Below are positions 1 to 60,232 of a stretch of DNA of 64,000 nt, one piece after another. The position numbers were made by a program, and so were the translations under genes. Under the pieces are notes generated by a model. It saw nothing but the letters and a program-made list of their open reading frames with translations, was not told the DNA's origin and did no database searches. The stretch is from contig JACQFL010000048.1 of NCBI GenBank assembly GCA_016200085.1, positions 15,350 through 79,349 on the forward strand. Reading direction: 5' to 3'. The stretch is from Candidatus Rokuibacteriota bacterium. GTDB taxonomy: Bacteria; Methylomirabilota; Methylomirabilia; Rokubacteriales; CSP1-6. The stretch's first letter is position 1. Each line of letters begins with the position of its first letter.

Positions 1-506
1 GCCATGCGGCAGCGCAGCGAGTAGTACCCCGTGACCATCACGATCTCGAAGATCTCCTCATCGCTGAAGCCGACCTGGCGCAGCGTCTCGACGTTCTCGG
101 GCGTCGCCTTCGCCGGCGCCAGCGCGAGGATCTCCACGTAGCCCAGCATCGCGCGCTCCGCCTCGGGCAAGGGCAGGGCGCGCCAGTTCTGCGCCAGGGT
201 CACGACCTGCGCGGCGTCACCACCGACGATCTGACGGAGAGCCTCTCCGTGAAAGGTCGTTCAGTAGGCGCAGCGATGCAGCGCCGAGGTGAGGACGGCG
301 ATCATCTCCTGTCGGCGTTTCCCGAGGGCGCAGTGCGGGCCCCTGAGCGCGTAGAGGAGGTCGGCGAGCGCCCGCATCACCCGCGCGTTGATGCTCGCCG
401 CGCGGGCGATGTTGGACACCGAGCCGTTTTGCTGCCAGACGTGCGCATACACGTCCGCCAGCTCTCCCGTCGCCTCAGCTTCCGAGATCGTCCTGATCCA
501 GGGCAT
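1..506 (-). CDS. AhpD-like / carboxymuconolactone decarboxylase family selenoprotein. It is partial and runs off the window start, with an in-frame TGA at 261..263 read as Sec.
   Basis: Minus ORF 261..878 carries the C-terminal AhpD-like core (MPWIRTISEAEATGELADVYAHVW...ALHRCAY) and stops at a TGA exactly where the CxxCxxxH motif needs its second Cys (HRCAY-U-TTFHGEAL). The same frame continues without a stop down to position 1 (…LRQIVGG…EEIFEIVMVTGYYSL…). There is a GGAAGGAGAGG Shine-Dalgarno sequence before the ATG at 504-506. Confidence 0.65.
234..250 (-). other. SECIS-like hairpin downstream of the Sec-UGA of the AhpD-like gene
   Basis: Minus-strand RNA reads UGA ACG ACC UUU C ACGGAGA-GGC-UCUCCGU. 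This is a perfect 7-bp stem with a GGC loop, starting about 10 nt after the UGA. Confidence 0.5.
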
Positions 507-910
507 CGTCCTCTCCTTCCTGATGGGAGTGGTCGAGGGAGACCGCCCGCCCGGCGGGAGGCGTTCGAAGCGTTCCCCCGGCGCCGCGTCAGCGGCGGGC
601 GTGTCGCCAAGGAGAGCGGCAGGGTGCTCCGCGCGACGCCGGTCATCGTACACCAGACACCGGGCGCCACTTCCGACCGGTGTGGGTGAAGTGCAGGACG
701 CCAACAGTCGTCTCGTGGCAGAACCTGTCGAGCCGCCGACCGGCGTCTTCGTCTCGCGCAGCGCGCCGAGCCATGGACGGGTATCCGCCGACGAGTCCTG
801 GCCCCGGCGCTCGCCTGGCTCCGGCGGTGAGGCGGGTCTCGGGGAATAAAGCTGGCACCTGGGCTGTTCTCCGAGCACGCACGAATCTCACCTTGCCGCG
901 GGAGGGACGC

Positions 911-1405
911 ATGAAGGGTTGGGGTCGGACCGTGGGGCTGACGGCGACGGCACTGGTCATGGGCGTCGGTGGGGCGTGGGCGCAGCAGCCTGCCAAGGGC
1001 ACCCCGGCAACGGTGACGGGGCGCGTCGTCGACAACATCTGCATGCTCGGCATGGGGCTCAAGGGCGAGGGACATCGGGAGTGTGCGATCGGCTGCGACA
1101 AGGCCGGTGTGCGCATGGCGCTCCTGGACGAGAAGGCCAACGTGCTTTACACGCTGATGGCCGACAAGCCGTTCGTCGATCCCAACGCCCAGATCCGCGA
1201 GTACTTCGAGCGCGTCGTGACGATCAAGGGCGACCTCTACAGCGCGCCGGGCGGCCAGAAGGTCCTCGCCATCAAGGAAGTGCAGGCGGCCCAGGCGGGC
1301 GCGGCGGCGAACCCCTGCGCCGCGAAGAATCCGTGTGCCACGAAGAATCCCTGTGCGGCCAGGAATCCTTGCGCCGCCAAGAAGCCGGCCAGCGCGACGA
1401 AGTAG
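911..1405 (+). CDS. Secreted protein with a cysteine-containing N-domain and a C-terminal tandem NPCA(A/T)(K/R) hexapeptide repeat
   Basis: GGGAGGG Shine-Dalgarno sequence before the ATG at 911. Signal peptide MKGWGRTVGLTATALVMGVGGAWAQQ. C-terminus is NPCAAKNPCATKNPCAARNPCAAKKP. Confidence 0.7.
   Translation: MKGWGRTVGLTATALVMGVGGAWAQQPAKGTPATVTGRVVDNICMLGMGLKGEGHRECAIGCDKAGVRMALLDEKANVLYTLMADKPFVDPNAQIREYFERVVTIKGDLYSAPGGQKVLAIKEVQAAQAGAAANPCAAKNPCATKNPCAARNPCAAKKPASATK
1309..1386 (+). repeat. 18-bp in-frame tandem repeat encoding NPCAAK units (about 4 copies)
   Basis: aacccctgcgccgcgaag / aatccgtgtgccacgaag / aatccctgtgcggccagg / aatccttgcgccgccaag. Confidence 0.7.
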
Positions 1406-1474
1406 CCAGGCGAGGCCGGGTGCCCTCGGCGGACCGAAGCGAGGCAGGCGCCGCTTCGCTTCGGCCCTCGCCTC

Positions 1475-1752
1475 TCAGCACGCCGTCATCTCGACGACGT
1501 TCATCTCCGCCCCGTCACCCCAGGGCGTGCACGGCAGGCCACTCGCTTCCGACGCCCTCTCACCCGTGCTCGCGGGCGGTGACAGGATGCAGGCGATCAG
1601 CGGGTTGTCGCGCGAGGTGAGCGCGGTGATGCTGGCAGGGGGCGGCTCGGTCGCGGCGGGGACGATGGGCGGCGGCTCCGAGACGCTCGAGAGCACCTCG
1701 AGCGCCACGAAGAGGGTGCCGGCCGCCAGCGCGCTGGCCGTGACGATACGCA
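1475..1752 (-). CDS. Small hypothetical secreted protein (about 92 aa)
   Basis: Internal Met of minus ORF 1475..1867 (MRIVTASALAAGTLFVALEVLSS...), with a signal-peptide-like N-terminus. No homology recognised. Confidence 0.3.
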
Positions 1753-1962
1753 TCGTGGTCCTCGACGAAGAAACCAGGTGACCCGTGAGGATATTCCCTG
1801 GGCGCCGCCGCGCTCGCCAGAGGATTCCGGCGACGGCGCGCATTCCCTTCCACACGAGAAGGGCCAACGTGGCGGAGAGTCAACAGTGTCCCCGCTGACC
1901 GTCACGGTTCTCCTGAGCGCTCATCTCGTTCCTGGGCATCGTGTCTCCTTGCCCGAGGGGAC

Positions 1963-2409
1963 TCAAAGCGTGCGCTGATTCTCGCGATCGGCGCGCCAGC
2001 GCCGGCCAACCATGTCCGCTTCCTGCGGGGACACCGGAACCACGAAGAGCGACAGCAGCGTCCGCCCTGTTCGTAGAGGATGTACGTGGCCTGGCGCCGC
2101 CGCGCCTCCGCCAGTCGGGCGCCCAGCAGCTGGGAGGCCTTCGCGGGAGAAGTCGGGGACGGCCACGCGTACGCCGGCACGCTGCCGGAACCACCGCTCG
2201 ATTTCGCCACCATGGCTCGAGACCAGCTCCGCCGGTGACGCCTCCCGCGGCTGCCACCGCACGACGCTGCTGAGCTGTCGCTCTCGCCGAACGAGGCCCA
2301 GGCAGTCGCCGCACGTCGCCACGTGGCAATCGGCTGCCCACATCGCGTCGGCTGGCAGCTCCTCGTCGATGTAGGGGTGCAGGATGGCCTCGAATGCCGC
2401 GCAGGTCAT
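1963..2409 (-). CDS. Zinc-finger (zf-HC2, HxxxCxxC) anti-sigma-factor-like protein, a paralog of the anti-sigma at 7151..7933 that lacks the TM segment
   Basis: MTCAAFEAILHPYIDEELPADAMWAADCHVATCGDCLG... Shares the RAGVRVAVPDFS and LLSLFVVPVS blocks with the other anti-sigma. It is the C-terminal 148 aa of the spurious 583-aa ORF. Confidence 0.6.
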   Translation of the reverse strand: MTCAAFEAILHPYIDEELPADAMWAADCHVATCGDCLGLVRRERQLSSVVRWQPREASPAELVSSHGGEIERWFRQRAGVRVAVPDFSREGLPAAGRPTGGGAAAPGHVHPLRTGRTLLSLFVVPVSPQEADMVGRRWRADRENQRTL

Positions 2410-2493
2410 ACCTGACGATCTAACCCGTCCCGGCCGTGGTTTATTCCGGACGCAGTGGAATGGCGTCACACGGTCGCGTGTTCTGTTCTGTTG

Positions 2494-3711
2494 ATGACGT
2501 TCCGCCGCGCGCTCTTGCGGGGGGCATCGCTGCTGCTGGTGCTTGGCGGCACGGCTCCGGCGGGCGGAGATGCTGGCGCCGACCGGGCCTTTCTCGATCG
2601 GCACTGGCGGAGACCGGTCCCGCCACAGGGCGAGGCGCCGGCGCGGTGGTCCGCACTCGAGAAGTCGCTCGCGCCGCAGAGCTGCGGGGCCTGCCATCAG
2701 GCCCAGCTCGCCGACTGGAAGACGAGCGTCCACGCGCGCAGCTTGGGGCCGGGCGTCGCCGGCCAGCTGGTGGAGATGCGCCGGAGCGATCCCGAATCCT
2801 TCCGGCTCTGTCTGTCCTGCCATGGGCCCCTGGCGGAGCAGCAGCCGGACATCGAGCGCCACGGCCGCTCCGTGCCGAATCCCGAGTTCGACCCCGGCCT
2901 CCAGGCCGCGGGTCTCGCGTGCGCGGTGTGCCACGTGCGCCAGCACGAACGGTTCGGCCCGCCCCGCCGGATCGGGATGGCGAAGGTCACGACGCCGCGG
3001 CCATCGCTTCCCCATGGTGGGGTGACGCGGACGCCGGCGTTCTCGCAGTCGACGTTCTGCACGAGCTGCCACCAGTTCTCCTCCGATGGCTTCGCGCTGA
3101 ACGGGAAGCTGCTGGAGAACACCTACGAGGAGTGGAAGCTCAGCGCCGCCGCGCGCGTGCGCCGGCAGTGTCAGGACTGTCACATGCCCGAGCGCCGGCA
3201 CCTCTGGCGCGGCATCCACGATCCGGACATGGTGAAGTCGGGCGTCGAGATCCTCGCGACGACGGCCCAGCGCTCGTATCGGCCGGGTGACGAGCTTGTG
3301 GCCACGATCGTGGTCAGGAGCGTCGGGGTCGGCCACGATTTCCCGACCTACGTCACGCCACGCGTCGTCGTGCGCGCGGCCCTGATCGACAACACGGGGG
3401 CTGCCGTGGGGGGCAGTGGGCAGGAGTACGCCATCGCACGCGAGGTCACTCTCGACCTGTCGCGGGAGATCTCGGACACCCGCATCCCTCCCGGTGGCAG
3501 CGCGAGCTTTACGTACCGGCGACGGCTCGAGCGCAAAGGCCTTTCGCTCAGCGTGAGCGTCATGGTGTATCCCGACCATTTCTACACGGGGTTCTTCGAG
3601 TCGCTGCTCGCCTCCGGTGCGGGCGCAGGCGCCCCCCAGATCCGCGAGGCGCTCGCGGCGAGCCGGCGATCGGCCTTCGAGATCTTCCGGAAGACCGTGC
3701 GCCTGACGTGA
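2494..3711 (+). CDS. Pentaheme c-type cytochrome (five CxxCH motifs), secreted
   Basis: CGACH, CLSCH, CAVCH, CTSCH, CQDCH. Signal peptide MTFRRALLRGASLLLVLGG. A GTG at 2455 is an alternative start. Confidence 0.8.
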   Translation: MTFRRALLRGASLLLVLGGTAPAGGDAGADRAFLDRHWRRPVPPQGEAPARWSALEKSLAPQSCGACHQAQLADWKTSVHARSLGPGVAGQLVEMRRSDPESFRLCLSCHGPLAEQQPDIERHGRSVPNPEFDPGLQAAGLACAVCHVRQHERFGPPRRIGMAKVTTPRPSLPHGGVTRTPAFSQSTFCTSCHQFSSDGFALNGKLLENTYEEWKLSAAARVRRQCQDCHMPERRHLWRGIHDPDMVKSGVEILATTAQRSYRPGDELVATIVVRSVGVGHDFPTYVTPRVVVRAALIDNTGAAVGGSGQEYAIAREVTLDLSREISDTRIPPGGSASFTYRRRLERKGLSLSVSVMVYPDHFYTGFFESLLASGAGAGAPQIREALAASRRSAFEIFRKTVRLT

Positions 3712-3728
3712 CACGAGGGGAGAGACGG

Positions 3729-4082
3729 ATGCGCGTGCTCATGACGGCAGCTCTGATCGTGCTGCTGAGCGCGTGCTCGACATCGGTCGTCGCCCAGGAG
3801 CGGCGGGTCACCGCGGTTTCGCGCGCTGCGTTCGCGAAGGTCGTCGAGGCGCTCGAGCAGGCCATCACGGACCAGCACCTGGCCCTGGGCTGCCAGGCCG
3901 ATCCCCCGAAGGGCGCGGCGGCGCGCGGCATCGCCATCAAGGACAAGGGCACGACGACCGTCTCGTACATGCCACCGCCGACCGTGTTCGCACCCTACAG
4001 ACATCCGGGCGTGCGCGCCGTCGCCGCCGGGCTCGATCCGATCTTCAACGCGACCGTCGATCAGGCACTGGGCGGGCGCTGA
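3729..4082 (+). CDS. Small lipoprotein (lipobox LSAC), hypothetical
   Basis: MRVLMTAALIVLLSACSTS... in ORF 3708..4082. Confidence 0.55.
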   Translation: MRVLMTAALIVLLSACSTSVVAQERRVTAVSRAAFAKVVEALEQAITDQHLALGCQADPPKGAAARGIAIKDKGTTTVSYMPPPTVFAPYRHPGVRAVAAGLDPIFNATVDQALGGR

Positions 4083-4083
4083 C

Positions 4084-4617
4084 ATGCGGCAACGCCTCGC
4101 GCTCGTGGTTGTCGGAGGCGTGGCCGGCAGTGGGCTGTTCTGGCTGGTCCAGGTGATGACGGGCGGCCCGACCATCACCGCGTTCATGGGCGAACAGGTC
4201 GCTGCTGCCGGCGGATATCCGGCAACCCTGGCGCCCGCCTTCGGGTGGATCATCCATGTCGCCGTCGGTCTCTCGTACGCGTCACTGTTTGGGGTCGTCG
4301 TCGCCCCGCTCCGCTTGCTGCCGCGGGCCGCGCTGGCCGGAACGTCGCTCGTCATGGCAATCGTGTTCGGCTGGCTGACGACCGCCATCGCGCCGTCGGC
4401 CATCAGCGTGACGGTCGGGCTGCTCGGGCACCGGCGGTGGCCCGCCGAGATCTTTCCTTTGAATTGGGACGTCGGCTTGCCGTTCTGGAATCATCAGCTC
4501 TTCTTTCTCGCCAACTGGATCATGCAGGTGCTCGGCGGGATGGTCGTCCGTGCACGGGCGAGGTCGCGGCGGCGGAGCCTGATCACCGGGCGCGAGGGCC
4601 AGGGCGAGCGGGAATAA
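4084..4617 (+). CDS. Hypothetical integral membrane protein (4-5 TM helices)
   Basis: Hydrophobic segments. Starts 2 nt after the preceding stop. No family recognised. Confidence 0.55.
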   Translation: MRQRLALVVVGGVAGSGLFWLVQVMTGGPTITAFMGEQVAAAGGYPATLAPAFGWIIHVAVGLSYASLFGVVVAPLRLLPRAALAGTSLVMAIVFGWLTTAIAPSAISVTVGLLGHRRWPAEIFPLNWDVGLPFWNHQLFFLANWIMQVLGGMVVRARARSRRRSLITGREGQGERE

Positions 4618-4671
4618 ACGCCGGGGCCGGCGGGTTCAGGGGGAAACGTTTGTATCAAGGAGGTGAGTCGA

Positions 4672-4944
4672 ATGATCCGTCAGGTGATCGGCGGCATCGC
4701 GGTCGCGGCCGCGCTCGCCCTCGCGGGGACAGACGCTCTGGCCCAGCAGGCCAACCCGTGCGCGGCCAAGAACCCGTGCGCCACGAAGGCGGCCAATCCG
4801 TGCGCGGCCAAGAACCCGTGTGCGGCCAAGAAGCCGGCTGCTGCGAAGAACCCCTGCGCGGCCAAGAACCCCTGCGCGGCCAAGAACCCGTGTGCGGCCA
4901 AGAATCCTTGCGCCGCCAAGAATCCCTGCGCCGCCAAGAAGTAG
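4672..4944 (+). CDS. Secreted peptide made almost entirely of about 11 tandem NPCAAK-like hexapeptide repeats (about 90 aa)
   Basis: Strong AAGGAGG Shine-Dalgarno sequence. Signal peptide MIRQVIGGIAVAAALALAGTDALAQQ, then ANPCAAKNPCATKAANPCAAKNPCAAKKPAAAKNPCAAK(x5)K. Confidence 0.7.
   Translation: MIRQVIGGIAVAAALALAGTDALAQQANPCAAKNPCATKAANPCAAKNPCAAKKPAAAKNPCAAKNPCAAKNPCAAKNPCAAKNPCAAKK
4749..4938 (+). repeat. 18-bp tandem repeat array encoding NPCAAK units
   Basis: Repeated aa(c/g)cc(c/g)tg(c/t)gc(g/c)gccaag units. Confidence 0.75.
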
Positions 4945-5033
4945 GATCTTTCCGGAGCCGGCCGTGCCCCCCGGGACGCCGGGGGGCCGCCGCCCCGATT
5001 CCCGTCCGTGAGGATGATCTCGGCTCGCCGGGA

Positions 5034-6188
5034 ATGGTTCTGCCGCTCGCGGGTTTGATGCACGTCGTGGTTCTTGCGCGTCGCCTTCTGTTGAAAGTCG
5101 CCACGGTGTTGGTCCTCCTTCCGGCGCTTGCCATCAGTCCCGCATTCGCGCACGACGGTCCCCCCGCTGGCGCCGTCGTACCCAGCGAGCGCATCGATCC
5201 GCGCCAGGTCTATCCCTTCGGCGTCGTCGCCGGCGGGGGCGGACACTTCCACGTCCTGCAGGTCATGCCAGGGGAGCGACGCGTCTTTGCCGGCACCCAT
5301 CTGGGGCTGTTCGTGAGCGAAGACCGAGGGCTCACGTGGCGTCTCGTCGCGCCTCGCTTCAGCGGCGTCGACGTCCACGGCCTCGCACGCGATGCGGCCA
5401 CGGGAGCGTTGTATGCGGCGACCCACGGACAGGGCCTTCTCGTCAGCGAGGACGGTGGCACCCGGTGGCGGGACGGCTCGGCGAGCCTGCCCGGCCGCGA
5501 CCTGCACGCCCTCGCCCTCGATGCCCATGATCGGGGCACGATCTACGTCTGGTCCGTTGGCCATGGTCTCTTCGCTCGGCGAGGTCGCGTGCGGATGTGG
5601 GAACGCCTGGCGGGGCGAGAGGCCCTCACCCAGGTGGAGAGCCTCGCCATCCATCCACAGAATTCGCGGCGGCTCTACGCGGGAACCGCGGCCGGGGTGC
5701 TTGTCAGCGAGGACGGCGGCCGCCGGTGGATGCTACCGCCCGGCGGCCTCGAGCGTCGGACCGCCGGCGTCGCGGTCGTCCCGAGCCGGCCTGACATGGT
5801 CCTCGCCGCGACGTTCGACGGGGTCTTCGCCGGTCACGCAGCCGGCGCGGACTGGAAGCCGCTCGAGGCAGCGCCCTCGTGGTGGGGCCCGATCGTGGGG
5901 TTCGCGTTCGTCGGCGATCGGCCCGACACCGTCTTTGCCGTCTCGCACGAGGGACCGGTCGTCATGCGCGCGGTGTGGGATGGCCCCTGGATACCTCTCG
6001 CGGCGCGACCGCCGGCCACGAGTCGGCGAATCAGCGCCCGCCCTTCGGGGCCGGTCCACGAGCGCGGACCAACCGCAGTGGTGAGCACCCGGCCGTCACG
6101 GCCGATCAAAACCACGGTGGGCGTCGCCCGGACGCCATACGCCCGGGCGACCCGCATGTCGGGATCGAGCACCACGGGAGCGCTGTAG
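5034..6188 (+). CDS. BNR/Asp-box repeat (sialidase-like / Ycf48-like beta-propeller) secreted protein. The 3' end is uncertain.
   Basis: Repeated SxDxGxTW motifs (SEDRGLTW, SEDGGTRW, SEDGGRRW). Signal peptide (...KVATVLVLLPALAISPAFA). A TTG about 57 nt downstream of the ATG is an alternative start. The tail beyond about 6000 overlaps the convergent TlpA-like gene and may not be coding. Confidence 0.6.
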   Translation: MVLPLAGLMHVVVLARRLLLKVATVLVLLPALAISPAFAHDGPPAGAVVPSERIDPRQVYPFGVVAGGGGHFHVLQVMPGERRVFAGTHLGLFVSEDRGLTWRLVAPRFSGVDVHGLARDAATGALYAATHGQGLLVSEDGGTRWRDGSASLPGRDLHALALDAHDRGTIYVWSVGHGLFARRGRVRMWERLAGREALTQVESLAIHPQNSRRLYAGTAAGVLVSEDGGRRWMLPPGGLERRTAGVAVVPSRPDMVLAATFDGVFAGHAAGADWKPLEAAPSWWGPIVGFAFVGDRPDTVFAVSHEGPVVMRAVWDGPWIPLAARPPATSRRISARPSGPVHERGPTAVVSTRPSRPIKTTVGVARTPYARATRMSGSSTTGAL

Positions 6189-6553
6189 CCACGCGCCTTC
6201 ACCTCGCGGGCGACAGTCGTGGCGTCTTCACCGACATCGACGAGCACCGCGGTGAAGCCGTCCGGGGCGAGCTCCTTCGCCATCGCGTCGATCGAGGGCA
6301 ACTCCCTCGCGCAGTGCGGTCACCAGGTGGCCCAGAAATAGAGCATGACGAGATGGCCGCGGAACTGATCCAGCGACACCGTGTGCCCGGTGACGTCGCG
6401 CAGGCTGAAGGCCGGCGCCGTCACGGGCTCGGCCGCGGGCGCCACCCCCAGCGCGTCCCACAGCGCCGAGTCCGTCGTGGCACCCGCCGCGGCGGAGGCG
6501 ACGAACAGGACGCCGAGGACCACACTCGCCCAGGGGGGTCGCCGCGTGATCAC
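5834..6553 (-). CDS. TlpA/thioredoxin-like (redoxin) selenoprotein, periplasmic. In-frame TGA at 6320..6322 read as Sec (U-P-H-C). The 3' end is uncertain.
   Basis: ORFs 6320..6553 and 5834..6301 are in the same frame, separated only by a TGA: ...LVMLYFWATW-U-PHCARELPSIDAMAKELAP...ATPTVVLIGRDGRV. This is the thioredoxin WCxxC motif with the first Cys coded as UGA. Signal peptide MITRRPPWASVVLGVLFVASAAAGA. Confidence 0.65.
6293..6309 (-). other. SECIS-like hairpin downstream of the Sec-UGA of the TlpA-like gene
   Basis: UGA CCG CAC UGC G CGAGGG-AGUUG-CCCUCG. A 6-bp stem with a 5-nt loop, starting 10-11 nt after the UGA. Confidence 0.5.
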
Positions 6554-7134
6554 GCTTGAACCTCCCGCATCGAGTGGGTGGGGCGCGCTCTCACGTCGAT
6601 CGCGAGACGGCTGAGGATCTCGAGCGAGCGATCGTTGAACGGATCCACGCCGGGATTGGCGAGGCGGTGCTCGGCGAGGCGTGTGATCTTTCCCTCCTGG
6701 AGCCGCTCGATCTGGGGAGTGAACGCCTGGAATACCAGATTGACGAACCGCACGAGGCGCGCGTCACCCCGGGTTTCGTCGATGCGAAACCGACGCGCAT
6801 ACCGTTTGAGAGCCGCCCCGCTCTCGTACCGGTCTCCGATCGCCCAGAGGTTCAGGGTGAACAGCGCCTGCGGCCAGCCGTCACGCGCCATGGAGATGGC
6901 GACGAGATGCACGGTGTGATCGGGGAACAGCCTTACCGTGTGGAAATGTCCGGCCTCGTGCGTCGCGCCGTCGTGACGGTGAAAATATGACTGGCAGCCC
7001 GTGTCGCGGTCGAAGACCCCGTAGTCGTCCGGATACAAGGTCCAGGGCGTCACGTCGCGACCGCCGCAGGCGAGCTCCATCACCGTCGTGCCGTCACGCT
7101 CGAGCGCGGTGAGCAGCTGGCGAAGCTCGGTCAT
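6550..7134 (-). CDS. Hypothetical cupin-like protein (HRHDG...EAGHFH His cluster)
   Basis: Internal Met MTELRQLL of ORF 6550..7221. ATGA overlap with the downstream TlpA-like gene. Confidence 0.5.
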   Translation of the reverse strand: MTELRQLLTALERDGTTVMELACGGRDVTPWTLYPDDYGVFDRDTGCQSYFHRHDGATHEAGHFHTVRLFPDHTVHLVAISMARDGWPQALFTLNLWAIGDRYESGAALKRYARRFRIDETRGDARLVRFVNLVFQAFTPQIERLQEGKITRLAEHRLANPGVDPFNDRSLEILSRLAIDVRARPTHSMREVQA

Positions 7135-7150
7135 GGCCCTGGCCACGGGA

Positions 7151-7933
7151 TCAGAGACGGTTGCGCTCGGCACGCTCGAGGCGGAGCCGGTCGGCGCACT
7201 CGAGGAGCGCGTCGTAATCAAGCGCCGACACCAGGCCGAAGACCGCGCGGCCGTCCGTCCACGCCACCGTCCGATAACCCTTCAGGTCTTTCGCGAAGTA
7301 CTCCTGCCCGCGGAAGGTCACAGGTCGGCCGGTCAGGTGCGCGTCGGGGCCGCTGACCGGCACGACGAACACCGACAGGAGCGTCCGGCCCTTCTCGTAG
7401 AAGATGTAGGCCACTTTGCGCTCGTGTGCCTCGGCGAGGCGGCCGCCGATCAACTGGATGCCCGCCGGCGAGTAGTCCGGAACGGCCACGCGAAGGCCGG
7501 CCCGCTGCTGGAACCACTGCTCGAGCTCGCCGCGGTCATTCGAGGCGAGCTCCACGGGCCGCTCGATCTGGGCGTAGGCGATGTGCTTGTCGACGAGCTC
7601 GGCCAGGAGCGGGGCGGAGGGCCGGCTCGCGGGCAAGAGGACCGCCACGAGGAGCGCCGCCACCGCGGCGGCGAGCGGCGCCACGAGCCAGGGGCGCCAC
7701 GCGACGCGGCGCTGCTCGCGGCGCACGAGCGCGGTGATCTTCGCGCGGAACTCCGGCGACGCCGCTTCCCGGGGCTGGCGGCGGAGGACCTCGCGGAACT
7801 GGCGCTCGCGCCCGAGGAGACCGGCGCAGTCCCGGCACCCCGCGAGGTGCGCGTCCGCCGCCGCCATCGCCTCCACCGGCAACTCGCCATCGAGGTAGGG
7901 ATGCACGCTCGCCGCGAATTCTCTGCAGCTCAT
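7151..7933 (-). CDS. Anti-sigma factor: zf-HC2 (HxxxCxxC) N-domain, one TM segment, periplasmic C-domain
   Basis: MSCREFAASVHPYLDGELPVEAMAAADAHLAGCRDCAG... 4-nt overlap with the upstream ECF sigma gene. Confidence 0.8.
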   Translation of the reverse strand: MSCREFAASVHPYLDGELPVEAMAAADAHLAGCRDCAGLLGRERQFREVLRRQPREAASPEFRAKITALVRREQRRVAWRPWLVAPLAAAVAALLVAVLLPASRPSAPLLAELVDKHIAYAQIERPVELASNDRGELEQWFQQRAGLRVAVPDYSPAGIQLIGGRLAEAHERKVAYIFYEKGRTLLSVFVVPVSGPDAHLTGRPVTFRGQEYFAKDLKGYRTVAWTDGRAVFGLVSALDYDALLECADRLRLERAERNRL

Positions 7934-8523
7934 TCCTCGTCCCTCACGTATCCATGCTCGCGCGCCAGCCGCGTGAGGGCCTGCCGCAGCAGGTGCCGGC
8001 CCCGCGACAGGCGGGACATCACGGTGCCCACCGGGCAGCCGACGACGTCGGCGACCTCCCGATAGCTGAGGCCCTCGAGGTCCACGAGCACCACGGCCTC
8101 GCGGAACACCAGGGGCAGGCCTTTGAGCGCCCGATCGACGTCACCATGCAGGACGGTCTGGAAGAACGCTTCCTCCGGGTTGACGAACCCCATCGACGTC
8201 GCGCTGGGCTGGCCGGTCTCCCACACGGCCGCATCGGGCTCCAGGACCTCACGCCCGTCCTTGCGCAGCCGATTCAGGAACACGTTTCTGAGAATCGTGA
8301 GGAGCCAGGCGCGACAGTTGGTCCCCGGGTTGAACCGGTGAAAGTTGCGGAACGCCCGCAGCACCGCCTCCTGGACCACATCCTCGGCCTCCCCCCGGCT
8401 GCGCGTCAGACGAAGCGCCGTCTGGTAGAGCGTCTCGAGATGGACGAGGGCCGTCCGCTCGAACTCGCTGCCCTCCGATGCCGCGGTCCGCCAGGGAATC
8501 GGAAACCCTCCTGTCGTGAGAAC
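7930..8523 (-). CDS. ECF (sigma-70 family, RpoE-like) sigma factor
   Basis: Regions 2 and 4 are recognisable (LVHLETLYQTALRLT..., LPLVFREAVVLVDLEGLSYREVADVVGCPVGTVMSRLSRGRHLLRQ). The GTG at 8523 is a guess. The ORF extends to 8682. Confidence 0.7.
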   Translation of the reverse strand, partial: VLTTGGFPIPWRTAASEGSEFERTALVHLETLYQTALRLTRSRGEAEDVVQEAVLRAFRNFHRFNPGTNCRAWLLTILRNVFLNRLRKDGREVLEPDAAVWETGQPSATSMGFVNPEEAFFQTVLHGDVDRALKGLPLVFREAVVLVDLEGLSYREVADVVGCPVGTVMSRLSRGRHLLRQALTRLAREHGYVRDEE

Positions 8524-8566
8524 ACCACGACCCGCGCGGATATTCCGGCCTCGGGGGTGGCCCCGC

Positions 8567-9655
8567 TCAGGGAGCCGTACCGAGGATCGTCGTCGGGTGA
8601 AACGCCGCCCAGGCGAACCAGAACGCATCGACGTGAGGGATCGCACGCAGCCGGCGTCCCGCCAGCGGCCCCTTGACCCCACGGCCGAGCAGGTTCCAGG
8701 TCGTGCCGGTCTCCCGGTCGCGGAAGCCCCCCTCGTTTGCCTCGAATGTCAGGCTCTTTCCGTCGAGCATTCGACTGTAGACGGCGGTGGCGCCGACCGC
8801 GCGCGACCGCTCGATCCGCGCATCGTCGAGCGCCGAGAGGGCGCCCGGCTGAAAGAAGATCACGAGCGCCTCGCGGTCGATGGCGTCGTGCAGCACCCGC
8901 CGCTCGGCCAGAATCGGCCAGGGGTACGCCTTGGCCGTCTCGCCGATCTTCACGCCGACCACGCGCTCCTTCGGTGGCCGACGCGTATCCGGCCGACCGT
9001 TGAAGAGGAACGGACGAAGCTCCGGCTGATCGTATGACCCGTAGGGATTGGCGCCGTACTGGCGCTGGTGTCCCGTCTCCCGCGACAGGACCTTGCCGTC
9101 CGGGTGGGCCGCCTTCCAGTCCGCGAACGCGATCGTGTTGGCGGGCACCAGCGCGAGCCGCGTCCCCGCACGCTGGCCGACGAGGGCCCGACCTTCCATC
9201 TGCGCCCAGAGCGAGTGGCTCTGACGGTCGTACATGACGAGGTCGCTCTTGTACACCTTGCCCGACGTCCCGAAGTCGAGCGTCACGTCTCCGACCACCC
9301 GGTCGAACGCGATGCCCGAGTTGCGCAGCGGACAGAAGGTCACGACGACAGGCTTGCCCCCGACGGTGTCGTTCACGATCTCGTGCCACATGAGAATCTG
9401 GAGCGGATACGCCCGCGCATCGCCGTTGATCTCCAGCGCGAGCACGGGCTCCTGGGGCACCAGCCACGCGGCTTGACGCGCGGCGATGAACGCCGGTCGA
9501 TCGATCGCCGGGATGCCGTCTGGAGGCGGGCCGCCGGGGATGATCTCGTCGAGCGGGACCAGCGCCTTGCTCTCGTCGGTCCTGAGCCGCTCGGCGGTCG
9601 CCGCCGAAGCGATCAGGACGGTCAGCGCCACCATGATCGGTACGCGTTTCAACAT
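8567..9655 (-). CDS. DUF3179 family secreted protein
   Basis: Internal Met MLKRVPIMVALTVLIASAATA of ORF 8567..10048. Confidence 0.6.
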   Translation of the reverse strand: MLKRVPIMVALTVLIASAATAERLRTDESKALVPLDEIIPGGPPPDGIPAIDRPAFIAARQAAWLVPQEPVLALEINGDARAYPLQILMWHEIVNDTVGGKPVVVTFCPLRNSGIAFDRVVGDVTLDFGTSGKVYKSDLVMYDRQSHSLWAQMEGRALVGQRAGTRLALVPANTIAFADWKAAHPDGKVLSRETGHQRQYGANPYGSYDQPELRPFLFNGRPDTRRPPKERVVGVKIGETAKAYPWPILAERRVLHDAIDREALVIFFQPGALSALDDARIERSRAVGATAVYSRMLDGKSLTFEANEGGFRDRETGTTWNLLGRGVKGPLAGRRLRAIPHVDAFWFAWAAFHPTTILGTAP

Positions 9656-10129
9656 CTGCCGGCTCACGTGGTCCCTCCCTCGGGCGCGTCCGGCCTTACG
9701 GCGCCTGCACGGGCTCGCTCCGGTGCGACGCATCGATGGTCCGGGAGGACGTTCCAGGCGACGCGGCGGGTGACAGCGTGTCCATCGTCGCCTCCTTGCA
9801 GCGCCCTTCTCGGCGCCGTCACTGTAGAACACGCGGCGGGCCACCTCCATTCCCGCTCGGTCGCGAATCGCCATCGTTTCAAGCTCGGCAGGGGGCGGAT
9901 CGTGCGACTCGGAGAGTCGCCGTAGCGGAAGTCGCTGACGACGATGGGGTTTGTGCCCCGAAACGCCATCGGAGGAGCGGCTGGAGAGAAGACCCGGGAC
10001 GTTCGCGCGGAGGGGTCCGGAGAGCGGAAAGATCGGGTGACGCTGCACGATGTCGAGGTTAGCGGCCGGTCATCGGCCCCGGGGCGCCCGGCGGTCGTGG
10101 ACAGATCGTTTCACGCGTCGTGGCGCTGA

Positions 10130-24797: not shown

Positions 24798-24827
24798 GAC
24801 CCCGCGAGGTGTATACTCCGGAGAGTC

Positions 24828-24915
24828 GTCGTGGGGGGAGGAATCCTGAGAACCGGGTGCGGCCCGGGACCCCTCGAACCTGCTCTGGATAATCCCAGCG
24901 AAGGGAACACGCCGA
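24828..24915 (+). promoter_or_regulatory. TPP (THI-box) riboswitch upstream of thiS
   Basis: ggggaggaatcCTGAGAaccgggtgcggcccgggACCCctcGAACCTGctCTGGATAATcCCAGCGaAGGGAA. The CGGCCGCGGAG immediately 5' of the thiS ATG can pair with an upstream GGCCGCG element, which would sequester the Shine-Dalgarno sequence. Confidence 0.85.
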
Positions 24916-24980
24916 CGGATCGCGGCCGCGCCCGAAGTCTCGGGACAGCGGCCGTTGCTGTTTCCGGCCGCGGAGCGGGC

Positions 24981-49139: not shown

Positions 49140-49559
49140 TCACCTCGCGGGCGTGCCCGCCGCGCGGCCCTCGACGGGGTAGCCCTTCTCCTGCCAGCCC
49201 GGCAGGCCCTCGTCGAGCACCTTGTGGTTCCGCCACCCCATCGCGTACAGCATGTTGCTGGCCCCCCGGGACAGCGCGTGGGGGCAGCCTCAGTAGAAGA
49301 CGGCGAGCCCCGTCTTCGTGATCTCGCCGGCGCGCTCGGGCACCGCGCGCAGCGGCATCGAGCGCGCGCCCTTGATGTGCAGCTCCGCGTACTCGGCCCA
49401 GTGGCGCACGTCGATGATGTCCGCCTTCGTGCCCGCGGCGAGGGCGGCGTGCAGCTCGGCGACCTTGATGAAGGCCACGGGGGACTCGGGCGGCGCCGCG
49501 GGCGCGGCGCCCAGCAGCACGCCGGCCGCGGCGAGCACGGGGATCAGGGTGCGGCGCAT
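49140..49559 (-). CDS. Periplasmic single-domain rhodanese (sulfurtransferase) selenoprotein. In-frame TGA at 49290..49292 at the active-site Cys position (VFY-U-GCPHALSRG).
   Basis: Signal peptide MRRTLIPVLAAAGVLLGAAPAAP. The rhodanese core (ADIIDVRHWAEYAELHIKGARSMPL...) runs up to the TGA. The same frame continues for 49 more codons through the rest of the domain (GASNMLYAMGWRNHKVLDEGLPGWQEKGYPV) to a TGA at 49140. It sits between two TldD/PmbA-like genes with 4-nt gaps. Confidence 0.65.
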
Positions 49560-59707: not shown

Positions 59708-60232
59708 ATGGAGCGCACCCCCGAGGGGCTCGACCACACGGTGACGAGCCGGGACATCACCTTCGAGGCGGACGTCACGTCGGTGACCCCGTTCCTGAAG
59801 CTCGCCACGGTGAGCCGCGGCGGCGGTGATCACATGACGTTCGCGTGCGACGAGGGACCGAGCCTCGGCGGGCTGGGCTCGGCGCCCACGCCGCTGATGT
59901 ATTTCAGCGCCGCCCTCGCCTTCTGACTCATGACCCAGGTGTCCCGGTACGGGCACATGCTCAAGGTCGAGGTGACGCGCATGCGCATGCGCGTCCGGGC
60001 GCATTACCGCGTCACGGGGTCGGTCCTGAACGACACGATCGAGGGGGAGATGGTCGGCGCCGACACCATCCTGGAGCTCGAGTCGCCGGCGCCGCCCGAC
60101 CAGGTCGCCCGGGTGATCCGCAACGCGGAGCGCGGCTGCTTCGTCATGCAGGCGCTGCTGAAGCCCGTGCCCGTGGCCGCCACGACGGTGCTGAATGGCC
60201 AGGCCCTGCCGGCGCGACGCGACGCGTTGTGA
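59708..60232 (+). CDS. OsmC/Ohr-family peroxiredoxin-like selenoprotein. In-frame TGA at 59924..59926 at the first conserved Cys (SAALAF-U-LMTQV).
   Basis: ORFs 59708..59926 and 59930..60232 are in the same frame with only a TGA between them. The second conserved OsmC Cys is present (AERGCFVMQAL). Confidence 0.6.
59939..59956 (+). other. SECIS-like hairpin downstream of the OsmC Sec-UGA
   Basis: UGA CUC AUG ACC CAG GUGuCCCG-GUA-CGGGCAC. The stem has one bulge, the loop GUA contains a G, and it starts about 12 nt after the UGA. Confidence 0.4.

What the first reader, a model, noticed from the sequence alone, without database searches (positions are those of the whole stretch)
5834..6553. TlpA/thioredoxin-like periplasmic redoxin with UGA replacing the first Cys of the CxxC motif (W-U-P-H-C)
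Two track ORFs, 6320..6553 and 5834..6301, share a frame and are separated only by a TGA. Joined, they read ...LYFWATW-U-PHCARE..., the thioredoxin-fold active site with the N-terminal cysteine encoded by UGA. A 6-bp hairpin (CGAGGG-AGUUG-CCCUCG) begins 10-11 nt downstream. Thioredoxin/TlpA-like UxxC selenoproteins are known. In this gene the Sec would sit at the nucleophilic position of a periplasmic protein.
Basis: partly seen in the sequence, partly recalled or inferred. Interest (0 to 1): 0.8.

Follow-up and report, generated by a model that had tools for sequence, protein, structure and literature searches.

The report
Selenocysteine TlpA-like exported redox protein
This is a real but ordinary selenoprotein gene: an exported thioredoxin-fold disulfide reductase whose active-site cysteine is replaced by selenocysteine (UGA plus a conserved RNA hairpin). 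It belongs to a selenoprotein class known since 2004, and the public annotation cut the gene in half.

Summary
On the minus strand one frame runs from GTG 6553 to TGA 5836-5834, interrupted only by TGA 6322-6320, and reads LYFWATW-U-PHC. With U read as C, AhpC-TSA/Redoxin models match continuously across the UGA (E about 1e-25).

The UGA is not an accident:
- Every relative above 50% identity has TGA at this codon; relatives at 49% or below have Cys (WCP[YHF]C).
- A metagenome scan for FWA[TS]W-TGA-xx-C, which did not specify the hairpin, returned 120 loci, and 73% of 124 unique sequences form at least 6 of 7 pairs at that position.
- Pairing covaries: 80.6% of cells paired against 48-57% for shifted controls, with 157 double changes.
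- Only 3% of Cys forms form that many pairs (Mann-Whitney P = 1e-22 on hairpin folding energy).
- In the window's clade the stem codons are frozen (AGG, CCC, TCG) while flanking synonymous sites vary.
- dN/dS is about 0.15-0.2 on both sides of the UGA.

The hairpin meets the published bacterial SECIS criteria. TGA is the normal stop here. Three more genes in the window carry UGA at or next to a redox-active Cys position (rhodanese, OsmC-like, AhpD-like). The Sec machinery itself lies outside the window.

Verdict: a mis-annotated member of the known "Prx-like/TlpA-like UxxC" selenoprotein class.

The parts
5834..6553 (-). Complete coding sequence of the TlpA/ResA-like selenoprotein (239 residues including Sec78; GTG start, TGA stop at 5836-5834)
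   Evidence: One frame with a single internal TGA. Pfam AhpC-TSA E=4.7e-25 and Redoxin E=6.7e-25 over residues 45-167. PDB relatives 3kcm and ResA align across the motif.
6561..6566 (-). Shine-Dalgarno GGGAGG, 7 nt upstream of the GTG start. The start overlaps the stop of the upstream DUF6969 gene (GTGA).
   Evidence: Read from the sequence. GTG 6553 is the first start codon after the preceding in-frame stop.
6479..6553 (-). N-terminal export signal or membrane anchor (M/V-ITRRPPWASVVLGVLFVASAAAGA): a basic n-region, a hydrophobic core of about 16 residues and an Ala-rich c-region
   Evidence: By inspection. Relatives have equivalent N-termini. No signal-peptide predictor was available, so this is an inference.
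6320..6322 (-). In-frame UGA, read as selenocysteine (residue 78), at the N-terminal nucleophilic position of the UxxC motif
   Evidence: Aligned with Cys in 76 unique Cys-form segments and with TGA in 124 unique Sec-form segments.
6311..6313 (-). Resolving cysteine (Cys81, TGC) of the U-P-H-C motif
   Evidence: The column is invariant in alignment A1.
6293..6309 (-). Bacterial SECIS hairpin CGAGGG-AGUUG-CCCUCG: 6 bp, a 5-nt loop with G-U at loop positions 2-3, and the loop starting 16 nt after the UGA
   Evidence: Energy -9.1 kcal/mol. Identical in all close relatives. Covariation across the wider family. At least 6 of 7 pairs form in only 3% of Cys forms. Stem codons are frozen in 23 of 23 sequences.
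6002..6421 (-). Conserved thioredoxin-fold core (residues 45-184), including the cis-Pro loop ATPT
   Evidence: dN/dS is 0.15-0.22 against L002, L003 and L008 on both sides of the UGA.
5834..6001 (-). Non-conserved C-terminal tail of about 55 codons, lying antisense to the conserved end of the convergent BNR-like gene. Relatives have a stop codon where this tail begins.
   Evidence: DNA alignment with L002, L003 and L008. The BNR comparison places the end of that gene's conserved core near nt 6000.
6550..7221 (-). Upstream gene encoding a DUF6969 protein. Its stop overlaps the selenoprotein start, so the two are probably co-transcribed.
   Evidence: Pfam DUF6969 E=3.3e-34. The same gene lies upstream of Sec forms in L008, L138, L146 and L199.
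7151..7933 (-). Membrane anti-sigma factor with a zf-HC2 (HxxxCxxC) domain
   Evidence: Pfam zf-HC2 E=1.5e-8. It lies directly upstream of the Sec-form gene in L003 and L004, and is also present in L146 and L150.
7930..8682 (-). ECF-type sigma-70 factor (start codon uncertain)
   Evidence: Pfam Sigma70_r2 and Sigma70_r4_2. The gene order is confirmed in L001.

Best explanation
The locus is one gene for an exported thioredoxin-fold thiol:disulfide oxidoreductase of the TlpA/ResA/'Prx-like' type. The N-terminal nucleophilic residue of its redox motif is selenocysteine (W-U-P-H-C).

Inferred mechanism of decoding: the ribosome reaches UGA 6322-6320. The 17-nt hairpin 10 nt downstream recruits SelB carrying Sec-tRNA(Sec), Sec is inserted, and translation continues to the stop at 5836-5834.

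Inferred fate and function of the product: the N-terminal signal or anchor sends the protein across the membrane. It then acts as a reductant for extracytoplasmic disulfides or oxidised thiols through a selenenylsulfide U78-C81 cycle, presumably re-reduced by a CcdA/DsbD-type system.

The gene is the last in an apparent operon: ECF sigma, zf-HC2 anti-sigma, DUF6969, then the selenoprotein. This suggests induction under envelope or oxidative stress.

Shown here: the single reading frame, the fold assignment, conservation of the UGA, the Cys/Sec pairing, the conserved and covarying hairpin, and purifying selection on both sides of the UGA. Inferred only: actual Sec insertion, export, the substrate and the regulation.
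For: Reading frame and fold:
- One frame with a single TGA.
- Pfam AhpC-TSA and Redoxin match residues 45-167 across the UGA at E about 1e-25.
- The nearest solved structures are 3kcm and B. subtilis ResA, aligned without a break through FWATW[C]P.C and the cis-Pro loop.

Conservation of the UGA:
- NCBI and other gene callers list only fragments that start just after the motif (P0001-P0004, P0028, P0034, P0053).
- The DNA of those seven loci has TGA at the same codon, with the reading frame conserved on both sides.
- Two GTDB representative genomes (Ca. Methylomirabilota L013, Ca. Rokubacteria L018) show the same, while neighbouring Cys forms have TGT or TGC.

The hairpin:
- A metagenome scan with a pattern that did not contain the hairpin returned 120 loci.
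- Among 124 unique sequences there are 51 distinct stems, mostly with loop AGUUG or AGUUA starting 16 nt after the UGA.
- For the 7-pair helix, 80.6% of cells are paired against 48-57% for shifted controls. There are 157 double changes against 26-52, and the covariation score is 0.499 against 0.10-0.18. None of 500 shuffles reached the observed value.
- At least 6 of 7 pairs form in 73% of Sec forms and 3% of Cys forms. Mean hairpin energy is -9.6 against -3.5 kcal/mol (P=1.4e-22).
- In the 23 sequences of the window's clade, Arg is always AGG, Pro always CCC, Ser always TCG and Leu TTG or TTA, while flanking third positions vary.
- The hairpin fits the bSECIS constraints quoted in PMC13188914: a 3-9 nt loop, a 4-16 bp stem, G in the first two loop positions, 16-37 nt spacing and MFE of -7.5 or lower.

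Selection and genetic code:
- dN/dS is 0.15-0.22 upstream and downstream of the UGA, with dS of about 0.7-1.2.
- TGA ends 31 of 42 long coding ORFs in the window, so the genetic code is standard.

Sec use in this organism:
- Three more genes in the window carry UGA at or next to a redox-active Cys position, each followed by a hairpin: rhodanese, OsmC-like and AhpD-like.
- More than 100 rhodanese relatives end at exactly that UGA.
- Methylomirabilota MAGs are reported to be very rich in selenoproteins (PMC13188914).
Against: - No selA, selB or selD (tblastn with the E. coli proteins) and no tRNA gene lies in the 64-kb window. The rest of the genome could not be read.
- No Rfam family matches the hairpin.
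- The single-sequence fold statistics are weak.
- The protein misses the NCBIfam cut-offs for ResA, TlpA and the curated selenoprotein models WAxxUGC and TUGYCR, so its subfamily and substrate are undefined.
- Export is inferred by eye only.
- This copy has an unusual unconserved tail of about 55 residues that overlaps a convergent gene. This could indicate a local deletion or an assembly problem, although an independent Logan assembly of run SRR12113413 gives the same sequence.
Confidence: 0.92

Rival explanations
1. The gene is a pseudogene, or the TGA is a sequencing or assembly error. On this view the TGA is a recent nonsense change in an ordinary CxxC TlpA gene and the hairpin is a chance feature of G+C-rich DNA.
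For: Hairpins of 6 bp are fairly common after TGA in this window (5.2%). The 71-nt fold is no more stable than shuffles. The 3' end of the gene looks disturbed: the stop codon is lost and the tail overlaps the BNR gene.
Against: The same TGA is present in seven independently assembled close relatives, two GTDB genomes and 120 metagenome loci. dS between them is near saturation while dN/dS stays about 0.15-0.2 on both sides. The hairpin co-occurs with TGA and is largely lacking with TGY. An independent Logan assembly of run SRR12113413 gives the same sequence.
Confidence: 0.02
2. Two separate products are made. Translation ends at the UGA, giving a 77-residue exported peptide, and restarts at TTG 6301 or ATG 6283 to give the 149-155-residue C-terminal protein that NCBI annotates.
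For: In-frame start codons lie shortly after the UGA. Gene callers predict exactly these two ORFs. Termination at the UGA will occur to some extent when selenium is scarce (general knowledge of Sec decoding).
Against: Neither half is a viable thioredoxin fold. The domain models and the solved structures span the break. The C-terminal half would lack both the signal sequence and the nucleophile. The downstream start is not conserved as a start: it is Leu or Met within LPSI in some relatives and a Val of VFC in L007. The frozen stem codons are explained by an RNA structure, not by a restart site.
Confidence: 0.03
3. The UGA is recoded, but not as selenocysteine. Possibilities are Cys inserted through a SelC*/tRNA(ReC)-type system that uses the same kind of hairpin, or near-cognate Trp or Cys read-through.
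For: Systems of this kind are discussed for bacteria that carry Sec-type genes (PMC13582414). Nothing in the window identifies the tRNA that is used.
Against: The four UGA-containing genes in the window belong to families catalogued as selenoproteins, and three carry the catalogued motif: UxxC Prx-like, CxxU AhpD-like and UxxT OsmC-like. The rhodanese family is also catalogued, but without this motif (PMC2398784, PMC13188914). The phylum is reported to be rich in selenoproteins. TGA is the normal stop codon here.
Confidence: 0.03

Closest known systems
'Prx-like thiol:disulfide oxidoreductase' / 'Prx-like 1 and 3' UxxC selenoproteins (Kryukov & Gladyshev 2004; Zhang & Gladyshev 2005 and 2008; listed in PMC2398784 and PMC13188914)
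   Same: An AhpC-TSA/Redoxin (PF00578/PF08534) thioredoxin fold, a UxxC motif with Sec at the N-terminal position, Cys-containing homologues, and a bSECIS directly after the UGA.
   Different: The source is a soil or groundwater Rokubacteria/Methylomirabilota lineage. The motif is FWATW-U-P[HYF]-C and the SECIS loop is very uniform (AGUUG). I did not compare it directly with the reference sequence WP_010940744.1. No NCBIfam selenoprotein model covers it, which is probably why PGAP truncated the gene.
Bacillus subtilis ResA and Bradyrhizobium TlpA (extracytoplasmic CxxC reductases for cytochrome c and CuA/Sco maturation); PDB 3kcm, 1st9, 1jfu
   Same: These are the best sequence matches among solved structures (E from 2e-24 to 4e-15). 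They share the W-C-x-x-C motif, the cis-Pro loop and an N-terminal anchor or signal. ResA is also the best NCBIfam match.
   Different: Those proteins use Cys, not Sec. The scores here are far below the equivalog cut-offs (93 against 170 bits for ResA, 64 against 230 for TlpA), so this protein is not an orthologue. No ccm, res, sco or cox genes lie next to it. The neighbours are an ECF sigma/anti-sigma pair and DUF6969.
E. coli fdhF/fdnG SECIS (the SelB-binding hairpin)
   Same: A minimal hairpin of about 17 nt placed 10-11 nt after the UGA, with G-U in the apical loop. The fdhF details are from my own knowledge of that system. The consensus constraints are as quoted in PMC13188914.
   Different: No sequence similarity to the E. 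coli element, no bulged U, and a shorter stem. Binding to a Rokubacteria SelB has not been tested.
NCBIfam NF041054 'ResA-like WAxxUGC motif' and NF053656 'TUGYCR motif thioredoxin fold (seleno)protein'; 'UGC-containing TlpA family' (cd02966)
   Same: These are TlpA/ResA-like thioredoxin folds with Sec in the active-site region.
   Different: The motif register differs (U-G-C against U-P-H-C). The scores are 58.5 against a cut-off of 300 and 21.7 against a cut-off of 100, so the protein is not a member.

Membership tests
Bacterial selenoprotein gene (Sec-UGA plus bSECIS) | An in-frame UGA aligned with a redox-active Cys of homologues (a Cys/Sec pair) | tested here: met
   Codon 78 aligns with the first Cys of WCxxC in 76 unique Cys-form segments.
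Bacterial selenoprotein gene (Sec-UGA plus bSECIS) | The UGA is conserved in orthologues, with coding conservation on both sides | tested here: met
   Seven close loci, two GTDB genomes and 120 metagenome loci carry it. dN/dS is 0.15-0.22 on each side.
Bacterial selenoprotein gene (Sec-UGA plus bSECIS) | The bSECIS consensus: a 3-9 nt apical loop, a 4-16 bp stem, G in the first two loop positions, 16-37 nt from UGA to loop, and MFE of -7.5 kcal/mol or lower (PMC13188914) | tested here: met
   The loop is AGUUG (5 nt, G at position 2 followed by U), the stem has 6 bp, the loop starts 16 nt after the UGA, and the energy is -9.1 kcal/mol. The spacing sits at the lower limit of the range.
Bacterial selenoprotein gene (Sec-UGA plus bSECIS) | The RNA structure is supported by covariation and is specific to the Sec forms | tested here: met
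   80.6% of cells paired against 48-57% for shifted controls; 157 double changes; none of 500 shuffles reached the observed value; at least 6 of 7 pairs in 73% of Sec forms against 3% of Cys forms; frozen stem codons.
Bacterial selenoprotein gene (Sec-UGA plus bSECIS) | selA, selB, selC and selD are present in the same genome | not testable with these tools
Indirect support comes from three more UGA-containing redox genes in the window and from the report of a selenoprotein-rich Methylomirabilota MAG.
Bacterial selenoprotein gene (Sec-UGA plus bSECIS) | Selenium is demonstrably incorporated at the UGA | not testable with these tools
   This needs 75Se labelling or mass spectrometry.
TlpA/ResA-like extracytoplasmic thiol:disulfide oxidoreductases (Redoxin/AhpC-TSA fold, cd02966-type) | A thioredoxin-fold domain match above the Pfam gathering scores | tested here: met
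   PF00578 scores 88.4 bits (cut-off 26) and PF08534 scores 88.0 bits (cut-off 26.6), over residues 45-167.
TlpA/ResA-like extracytoplasmic thiol:disulfide oxidoreductases (Redoxin/AhpC-TSA fold, cd02966-type) | A W-C-x-x-C active site and a conserved cis-Pro loop | tested here: met
   W77-U78-P-H-C81, and A-T-P145-T aligned with the corresponding loops of 3kcm and ResA. The first Cys is replaced by Sec.
TlpA/ResA-like extracytoplasmic thiol:disulfide oxidoreductases (Redoxin/AhpC-TSA fold, cd02966-type) | An N-terminal signal peptide or membrane anchor (extracytoplasmic location) | tested here: inconclusive
   A basic and then hydrophobic N-terminus is visible here and in the relatives, but no predictor was run.
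ResA (NF002854) or TlpA (NF047696) orthologue | A score above the curated NCBIfam cut-off | tested here: not met
   93.4 against 170 bits for ResA and 64.3 against 230 bits for TlpA. The protein works like these enzymes but is not an orthologue of either.
Curated TlpA-like selenoprotein models (NF041054 WAxxUGC; NF053656 TUGYCR) | A score above the cut-off and a matching motif | tested here: not met
   58.5 against 300 bits and 21.7 against 100 bits. The motif here is WATWUPHC.
'Prx-like thiol:disulfide oxidoreductase' selenoprotein class (PF00578, UxxC) | A PF00578 or PF08534 domain with a UxxC motif | tested here: met
'Prx-like thiol:disulfide oxidoreductase' selenoprotein class (PF00578, UxxC) | Direct homology or clustering with the reference member (WP_010940744.1) | not tested

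The most novel reading that the evidence does not exclude
The conserved gene set could form a selenium-dependent envelope thiol-stress module that has not been described. The set comprises the ECF sigma factor, the zf-HC2 anti-sigma factor, DUF6969 and the Sec-containing TlpA-like reductase. Beside it are a secreted protein with ten NPCAAK cysteine repeats, a BNR-like protein, a DUF302 gene (seen in L002 and L003) and a multihaem cytochrome. In this reading the selenoprotein keeps a specific cysteine-rich periplasmic client reduced, either the NPCAAK protein or apocytochromes. A less likely variant is that the UGA is read as Cys by a tRNA(ReC)-type system.
Probability: 0.1. Interest if true: 0.45.

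Novelty: new member of a known kind. Interest (0 to 1): 0.27.

Why it matters
The main value is practical. The public annotation splits this gene, and at least three others in the same 64 kb, at a Sec codon. As a result the redox proteome of Rokubacteria/Methylomirabilota is under-called.

No current NCBIfam selenoprotein model covers this FWATW-U-PxC subfamily, although it is abundant in metagenomes, many of them apparently soil samples. The 124 unique sequences collected here, with one well-defined covarying hairpin, would be enough to build such a model.

The data also fit reports that this phylum has very large selenoproteomes. Biologically this is not a new kind of system.

Tried and rejected
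- Rfam, at gathering thresholds and at E up to 10 on 5700-6700, found no SECIS-type family. It gave only a chance Pyrobac-1 hit and a TPP riboswitch elsewhere.
- ARAGORN found no tRNA in the window or in 18 of the 19 related loci scanned (one tRNA-Met in L115), so no tRNA-Sec was found.
- tblastn with E. coli SelA, SelB and SelD against the window and all loci hit only L077, an unrelated Hyphomicrobium locus.
- Single-sequence folding of 71 nt gave z = +1.1, which is uninformative.
- The genome-contig scan was driven partly by a 'WC' pattern, so it returned mostly Cys forms. These served as the control set; only L013 and L018 were Sec forms.
- Literature searches for Rokubacteria plus selenocysteine, and the BSepDB paper, gave nothing specific.
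- One paper search and one paper reading failed on punctuation in the terms.
- dN/dS against L013 and L018 is invalid because a one-codon indel breaks the ungapped comparison.
- Other same-frame TGA candidates are adjacent genes or antisense frames, not recoding sites: 13945, 21977, 58883, 59690, 60230 and 60639.
- I did not run structure prediction, fold search, a custom covariance model or the third homologue search, because the sequence-level evidence was already decisive.
Full report
**1. The observation**

On the minus strand a single reading frame runs from GTG 6553-6551 to TGA 5836-5834. A GGGAGG Shine-Dalgarno sequence lies 7 nt upstream of the start, and the start overlaps the stop of the upstream gene as GTGA. 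The frame contains one internal stop, TGA 6322-6320 at codon 78, in the context LYFWATW-TGA-PHCARELPS.

After a 10-nt spacer come CGAGGG (6309-6304), loop AGUUG (6303-6299) and CCCUCG (6298-6293), with an energy of -9.1 kcal/mol.

Taken alone the hairpin is weak evidence. In this 72% G+C window, 5.2% of all TGA trinucleotides are followed by a consensus-compatible hairpin of 6 or more Watson-Crick pairs, and 0.9% have one at this spacing. A 71-nt fold is no better than shuffled sequence.

**2. What the protein is**

With U read as C, Pfam AhpC-TSA (E=4.7e-25) and Redoxin (E=6.7e-25) match residues 45-167, straight across the UGA.

The nearest solved structures are a Geobacter thioredoxin-family protein (3kcm, E=2e-24), B. 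subtilis ResA and Bradyrhizobium TlpA. All align without a break through FWATW[C]PxC and the cis-Pro loop ATPT.

The best NCBIfam matches are ResA, StoA and TlpA, but all are far below their cut-offs. The two curated TlpA-like selenoprotein models (WAxxUGC, TUGYCR) are not matched either.

The N-terminus (ITRRPPWASVVLGVLFVASAAAGA) looks like an export signal or anchor, as it does in the relatives. This was judged by eye, not with a predictor.

**3. Comparative evidence for recoding**

*Conservation of the UGA.* The protein database holds only fragments of the closest relatives, all starting just after the CxxC position (P0001-P0004, P0028, P0034, P0053). P0001 is NCBI's 149-residue 'TlpA family protein disulfide reductase [Candidatus Rokubacteria bacterium]'. 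I fetched the DNA of the other six fragments (seven contigs, loci L002-L008). Every one has TGA at the same codon, with the frame conserved upstream and downstream, down to about 50% protein identity. Relatives at or below 49% identity are full length and carry WCPYC, WCPHC or WCPFC.

A scan of one genome per GTDB species gave mostly Cys forms. It also gave two more Sec forms, in Ca. Methylomirabilota (L013) and Ca. Rokubacteria (L018).

All but one are open thioredoxin-fold frames on both sides of the TGA.

*The hairpin is an RNA element, not a by-product of coding.*
- Among 124 unique Sec-form segments there are 51 distinct stems of 5-9 bp. Most have loop AGUUG or AGUUA starting 16 nt after the UGA.
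- On the ungapped alignment of 117 of these segments, the 7-pair helix has 80.6% of cells paired against 48-57% when the 3' arm is slid. It has 157 cells changed on both sides against 26-52, and a covariation score of 0.499 against 0.10-0.18. None of 500 shuffles reached the observed values. Examples of stems are CGAGGG/CCCUCG, CGGGAGG/CCUCCCG, CGGAAGG/CCUUCCG, GUGUGG/CCACAC and GGGCCG/CGGUCC.
- Cys forms of the same family lack the structure. At least 6 of 7 pairs form in 3% of them against 73% of Sec forms, and the mean energy is -3.5 against -9.6 kcal/mol (Mann-Whitney P=1.4e-22).
- In the 23 unique sequences of the window's own clade, the stem codons never vary: Arg is AGG, Pro is CCC, Ser is TCG and the preceding codon is NCG. 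The only synonymous change in this stretch is in the last loop base (TTG to TTA), while flanking third positions vary freely. AGG and TTG are unexpected choices in a 72% G+C genome. Rokubacterial Cys forms use CGG, CGC or AAG, and CTG or ATG.

*Fit to the published consensus.* The element satisfies the bSECIS constraints: a 3-9 nt loop, a 4-16 bp stem, G in the first two loop positions usually followed by G or U, 16-37 nt from UGA to loop, and MFE of -7.5 or lower (PMC13188914). Its spacing is at the lower limit.

*Selection.* Against L002, L003 and L008, dN/dS is 0.15-0.22 both in the 32 codons before the UGA and in the 100 codons after it, with dS of about 0.7-1.2 where it could be estimated. 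The interrupted frame has therefore been maintained for a long time.

**4. Does this organism decode Sec?**

The window holds no selA, selB or selD (tblastn with the E. coli proteins) and no tRNA gene. The remainder of the MAG could not be read, so the machinery is untested.

Indirect evidence is strong. TGA is the ordinary stop of 31 of 42 long coding ORFs, so the genetic code is standard. A scan for in-frame TGAs with a coding signature on both sides found three more redox genes with UGA at or next to a redox-active Cys position, each followed by a small hairpin:
- A rhodanese-domain protein (49559-49140, minus strand; VFY-U-GCPHALSR). Pfam Rhodanese spans the UGA at E=3.8e-14. More than 100 database relatives end at exactly residue 89. 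The frame and a GCUGGCCC-GGG-GGGCCAGC hairpin are conserved in L211-L213.
- An OsmC-like protein (59708-60232, plus strand; ALAF-U-LMT, a UxxT motif). Pfam OsmC spans the UGA at E=1.3e-12.
- An AhpD-like/CMD protein (506 down to the window edge, minus strand; HRCAY-U-TTFHGE, a CxxU motif). Pfam CMD spans the UGA at E=2.5e-9, and the hairpin is ACGGAGA-GGC-UCUCCGU.

All three belong to families listed as bacterial selenoproteins (PMC2398784, PMC13188914). A recent review also notes a Methylomirabilota MAG predicted to encode 63 selenoproteins.

**5. C-terminus and neighbours**

Relatives end 3-10 codons after ...LLAGG. The window copy has GGT where they have a stop, and it reads on for about 55 unconserved codons.

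The convergent BNR/Sortilin-like gene (5034-6188) is 69% identical to its L002 counterpart up to about nt 6000, and then also reads on without conservation. The conserved cores of the two genes therefore abut near nt 6000. Each tail is simply the antisense of the other gene's core: tblastn of the BNR tail hits the antisense of TlpA genes in other loci. An independent Logan assembly of run SRR12113413 agrees with the window sequence. This looks like a deletion of the intergenic spacer together with both stop codons. It does not affect the Sec call.

Upstream, in the same orientation and overlapping or abutting, lie DUF6969, a zf-HC2 membrane anti-sigma factor and an ECF sigma factor. The anti-sigma factor and/or DUF6969 precede the Sec-form gene in L003, L004, L008, L138, L146, L150 and L199.

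On the other side lie a secreted protein with about ten NPCAAK repeats (conserved next to the Sec gene in L002-L004), an unannotated ORF of 177 residues, and a multihaem cytochrome c.

**6. Mechanism**

Shown here: one gene, a thioredoxin fold, UxxC with Sec at the nucleophilic position, and a conserved and covarying SECIS.

Inferred: SelB-dependent insertion of Sec; export; a reductive selenenylsulfide cycle with Cys81, re-reduced by a CcdA/DsbD-type system; and induction through the ECF sigma factor under envelope or oxidative stress. The substrate is unknown. Apocytochromes and the Cys-repeat neighbour are only candidates.

**7. Comparison with known families, and novelty**

UxxC selenoproteins with AhpC-TSA/Redoxin folds ('Prx-like thiol:disulfide oxidoreductase', 'Prx-like 1 and 3') have been catalogued since 2004-2008 and are among the commonest bacterial selenoprotein types. 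This gene is a new, mis-annotated member of that class in a Rokubacteria/Methylomirabilota MAG. It works like TlpA or ResA but is not an orthologue of either, and no curated NCBIfam selenoprotein model covers it.

The rival readings are a pseudogene or sequencing error, two separate products, and recoding to something other than Sec. Each is left with a few per cent.

Noticed in passing
window 49140-49559 (minus strand); UGA at 49292-49290: A second probable selenoprotein: an exported rhodanese-domain protein that reads GLAVFY-U-GCPHALSRG. The Sec lies two residues before the canonical CX5R cysteine. It sits between two PmbA/TldD genes. NCBI annotates only the first 89 residues (P0122). More than 100 relatives in the protein database are exactly 89 residues long. 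L211-L213 keep the TGA, the downstream frame and a GCUGGCCC-GGG-GGGCCAGC hairpin 14 nt after the UGA; the window copy has one mismatch in that stem.
   Followed up: partly
window 59708-60232 (plus strand); UGA at 59924-59926: A third candidate selenoprotein: an OsmC-like protein that reads SAALAF-U-LMT. UxxT is the motif listed for OsmC-like selenoproteins. Pfam OsmC spans the UGA. The hairpin GUGUCC-CGGUAC-GGGCAC starts 12 nt after the UGA. Relatives were not examined.
   Followed up: partly
window 3-506 (minus strand, runs off the window start); UGA at 263-261: A fourth candidate selenoprotein: an AhpD-like/CMD protein that reads LHRCAY-U-TTFHGE (CxxU). Pfam CMD spans the UGA. The hairpin ACGGAGA-GGC-UCUCCGU starts 10 nt after the UGA. 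Relatives were not examined.
   Followed up: partly
window 4663-4944 (plus strand): A small secreted protein made of about ten tandem NPCAAK units (an 18-bp repeat with 10.1 copies), with no Pfam match. Homologues lie next to the Sec-form TlpA gene in L002, L003 and L004. It could be a metal-binding protein or a redox client.
   Followed up: partly
window 5834-6188: The convergent TlpA-like and BNR-like ORFs overlap by 355 nt. Both lack the stop codon that their relatives have, and each unconserved tail is the antisense of the other gene's conserved core. This suggests the intergenic spacer has been deleted. A Logan assembly of run SRR12113413 shows the same sequence.
   Followed up: yes
L010 6208-6250 and L012 2563-2605: Some Cys-form relatives (L012 in Ca. 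Methylomirabilia; L010 in a contig labelled Nitrosotalea) still have a stable hairpin at the SECIS position: CGGCGGG-AGCUG-CCCGCGG or CCGGUGG, at -13 to -16 kcal/mol. This may be a fossil SECIS left after a Sec-to-Cys change.
   Followed up: no
P0121 (database protein, 140 aa): The only full-length relative of the rhodanese candidate among the listed hits has Arg (FY-R-TCP), not Cys, at the Sec position. That is one base away from TGA (CGA or AGA).
   Followed up: no
window 2455-3711 (plus strand): A multihaem cytochrome c (MtrC/MtrF-like and NapC/NirT-like motifs) heads the plus-strand gene group that converges on the selenoprotein gene. The same arrangement, with a DUF302 gene, is seen in L002.
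   Followed up: partly
window 24824-24924 (plus strand): A TPP riboswitch (Rfam RF00059, 56.3 bits, above the gathering score).
   Followed up: no
L077 (Hyphomicrobium sp. MAG), about 95-9984: A Cys-form TlpA-like gene lies within a few kb of selA, selB and selD. These were the only Sec-machinery genes found in any fetched locus.
   Followed up: no
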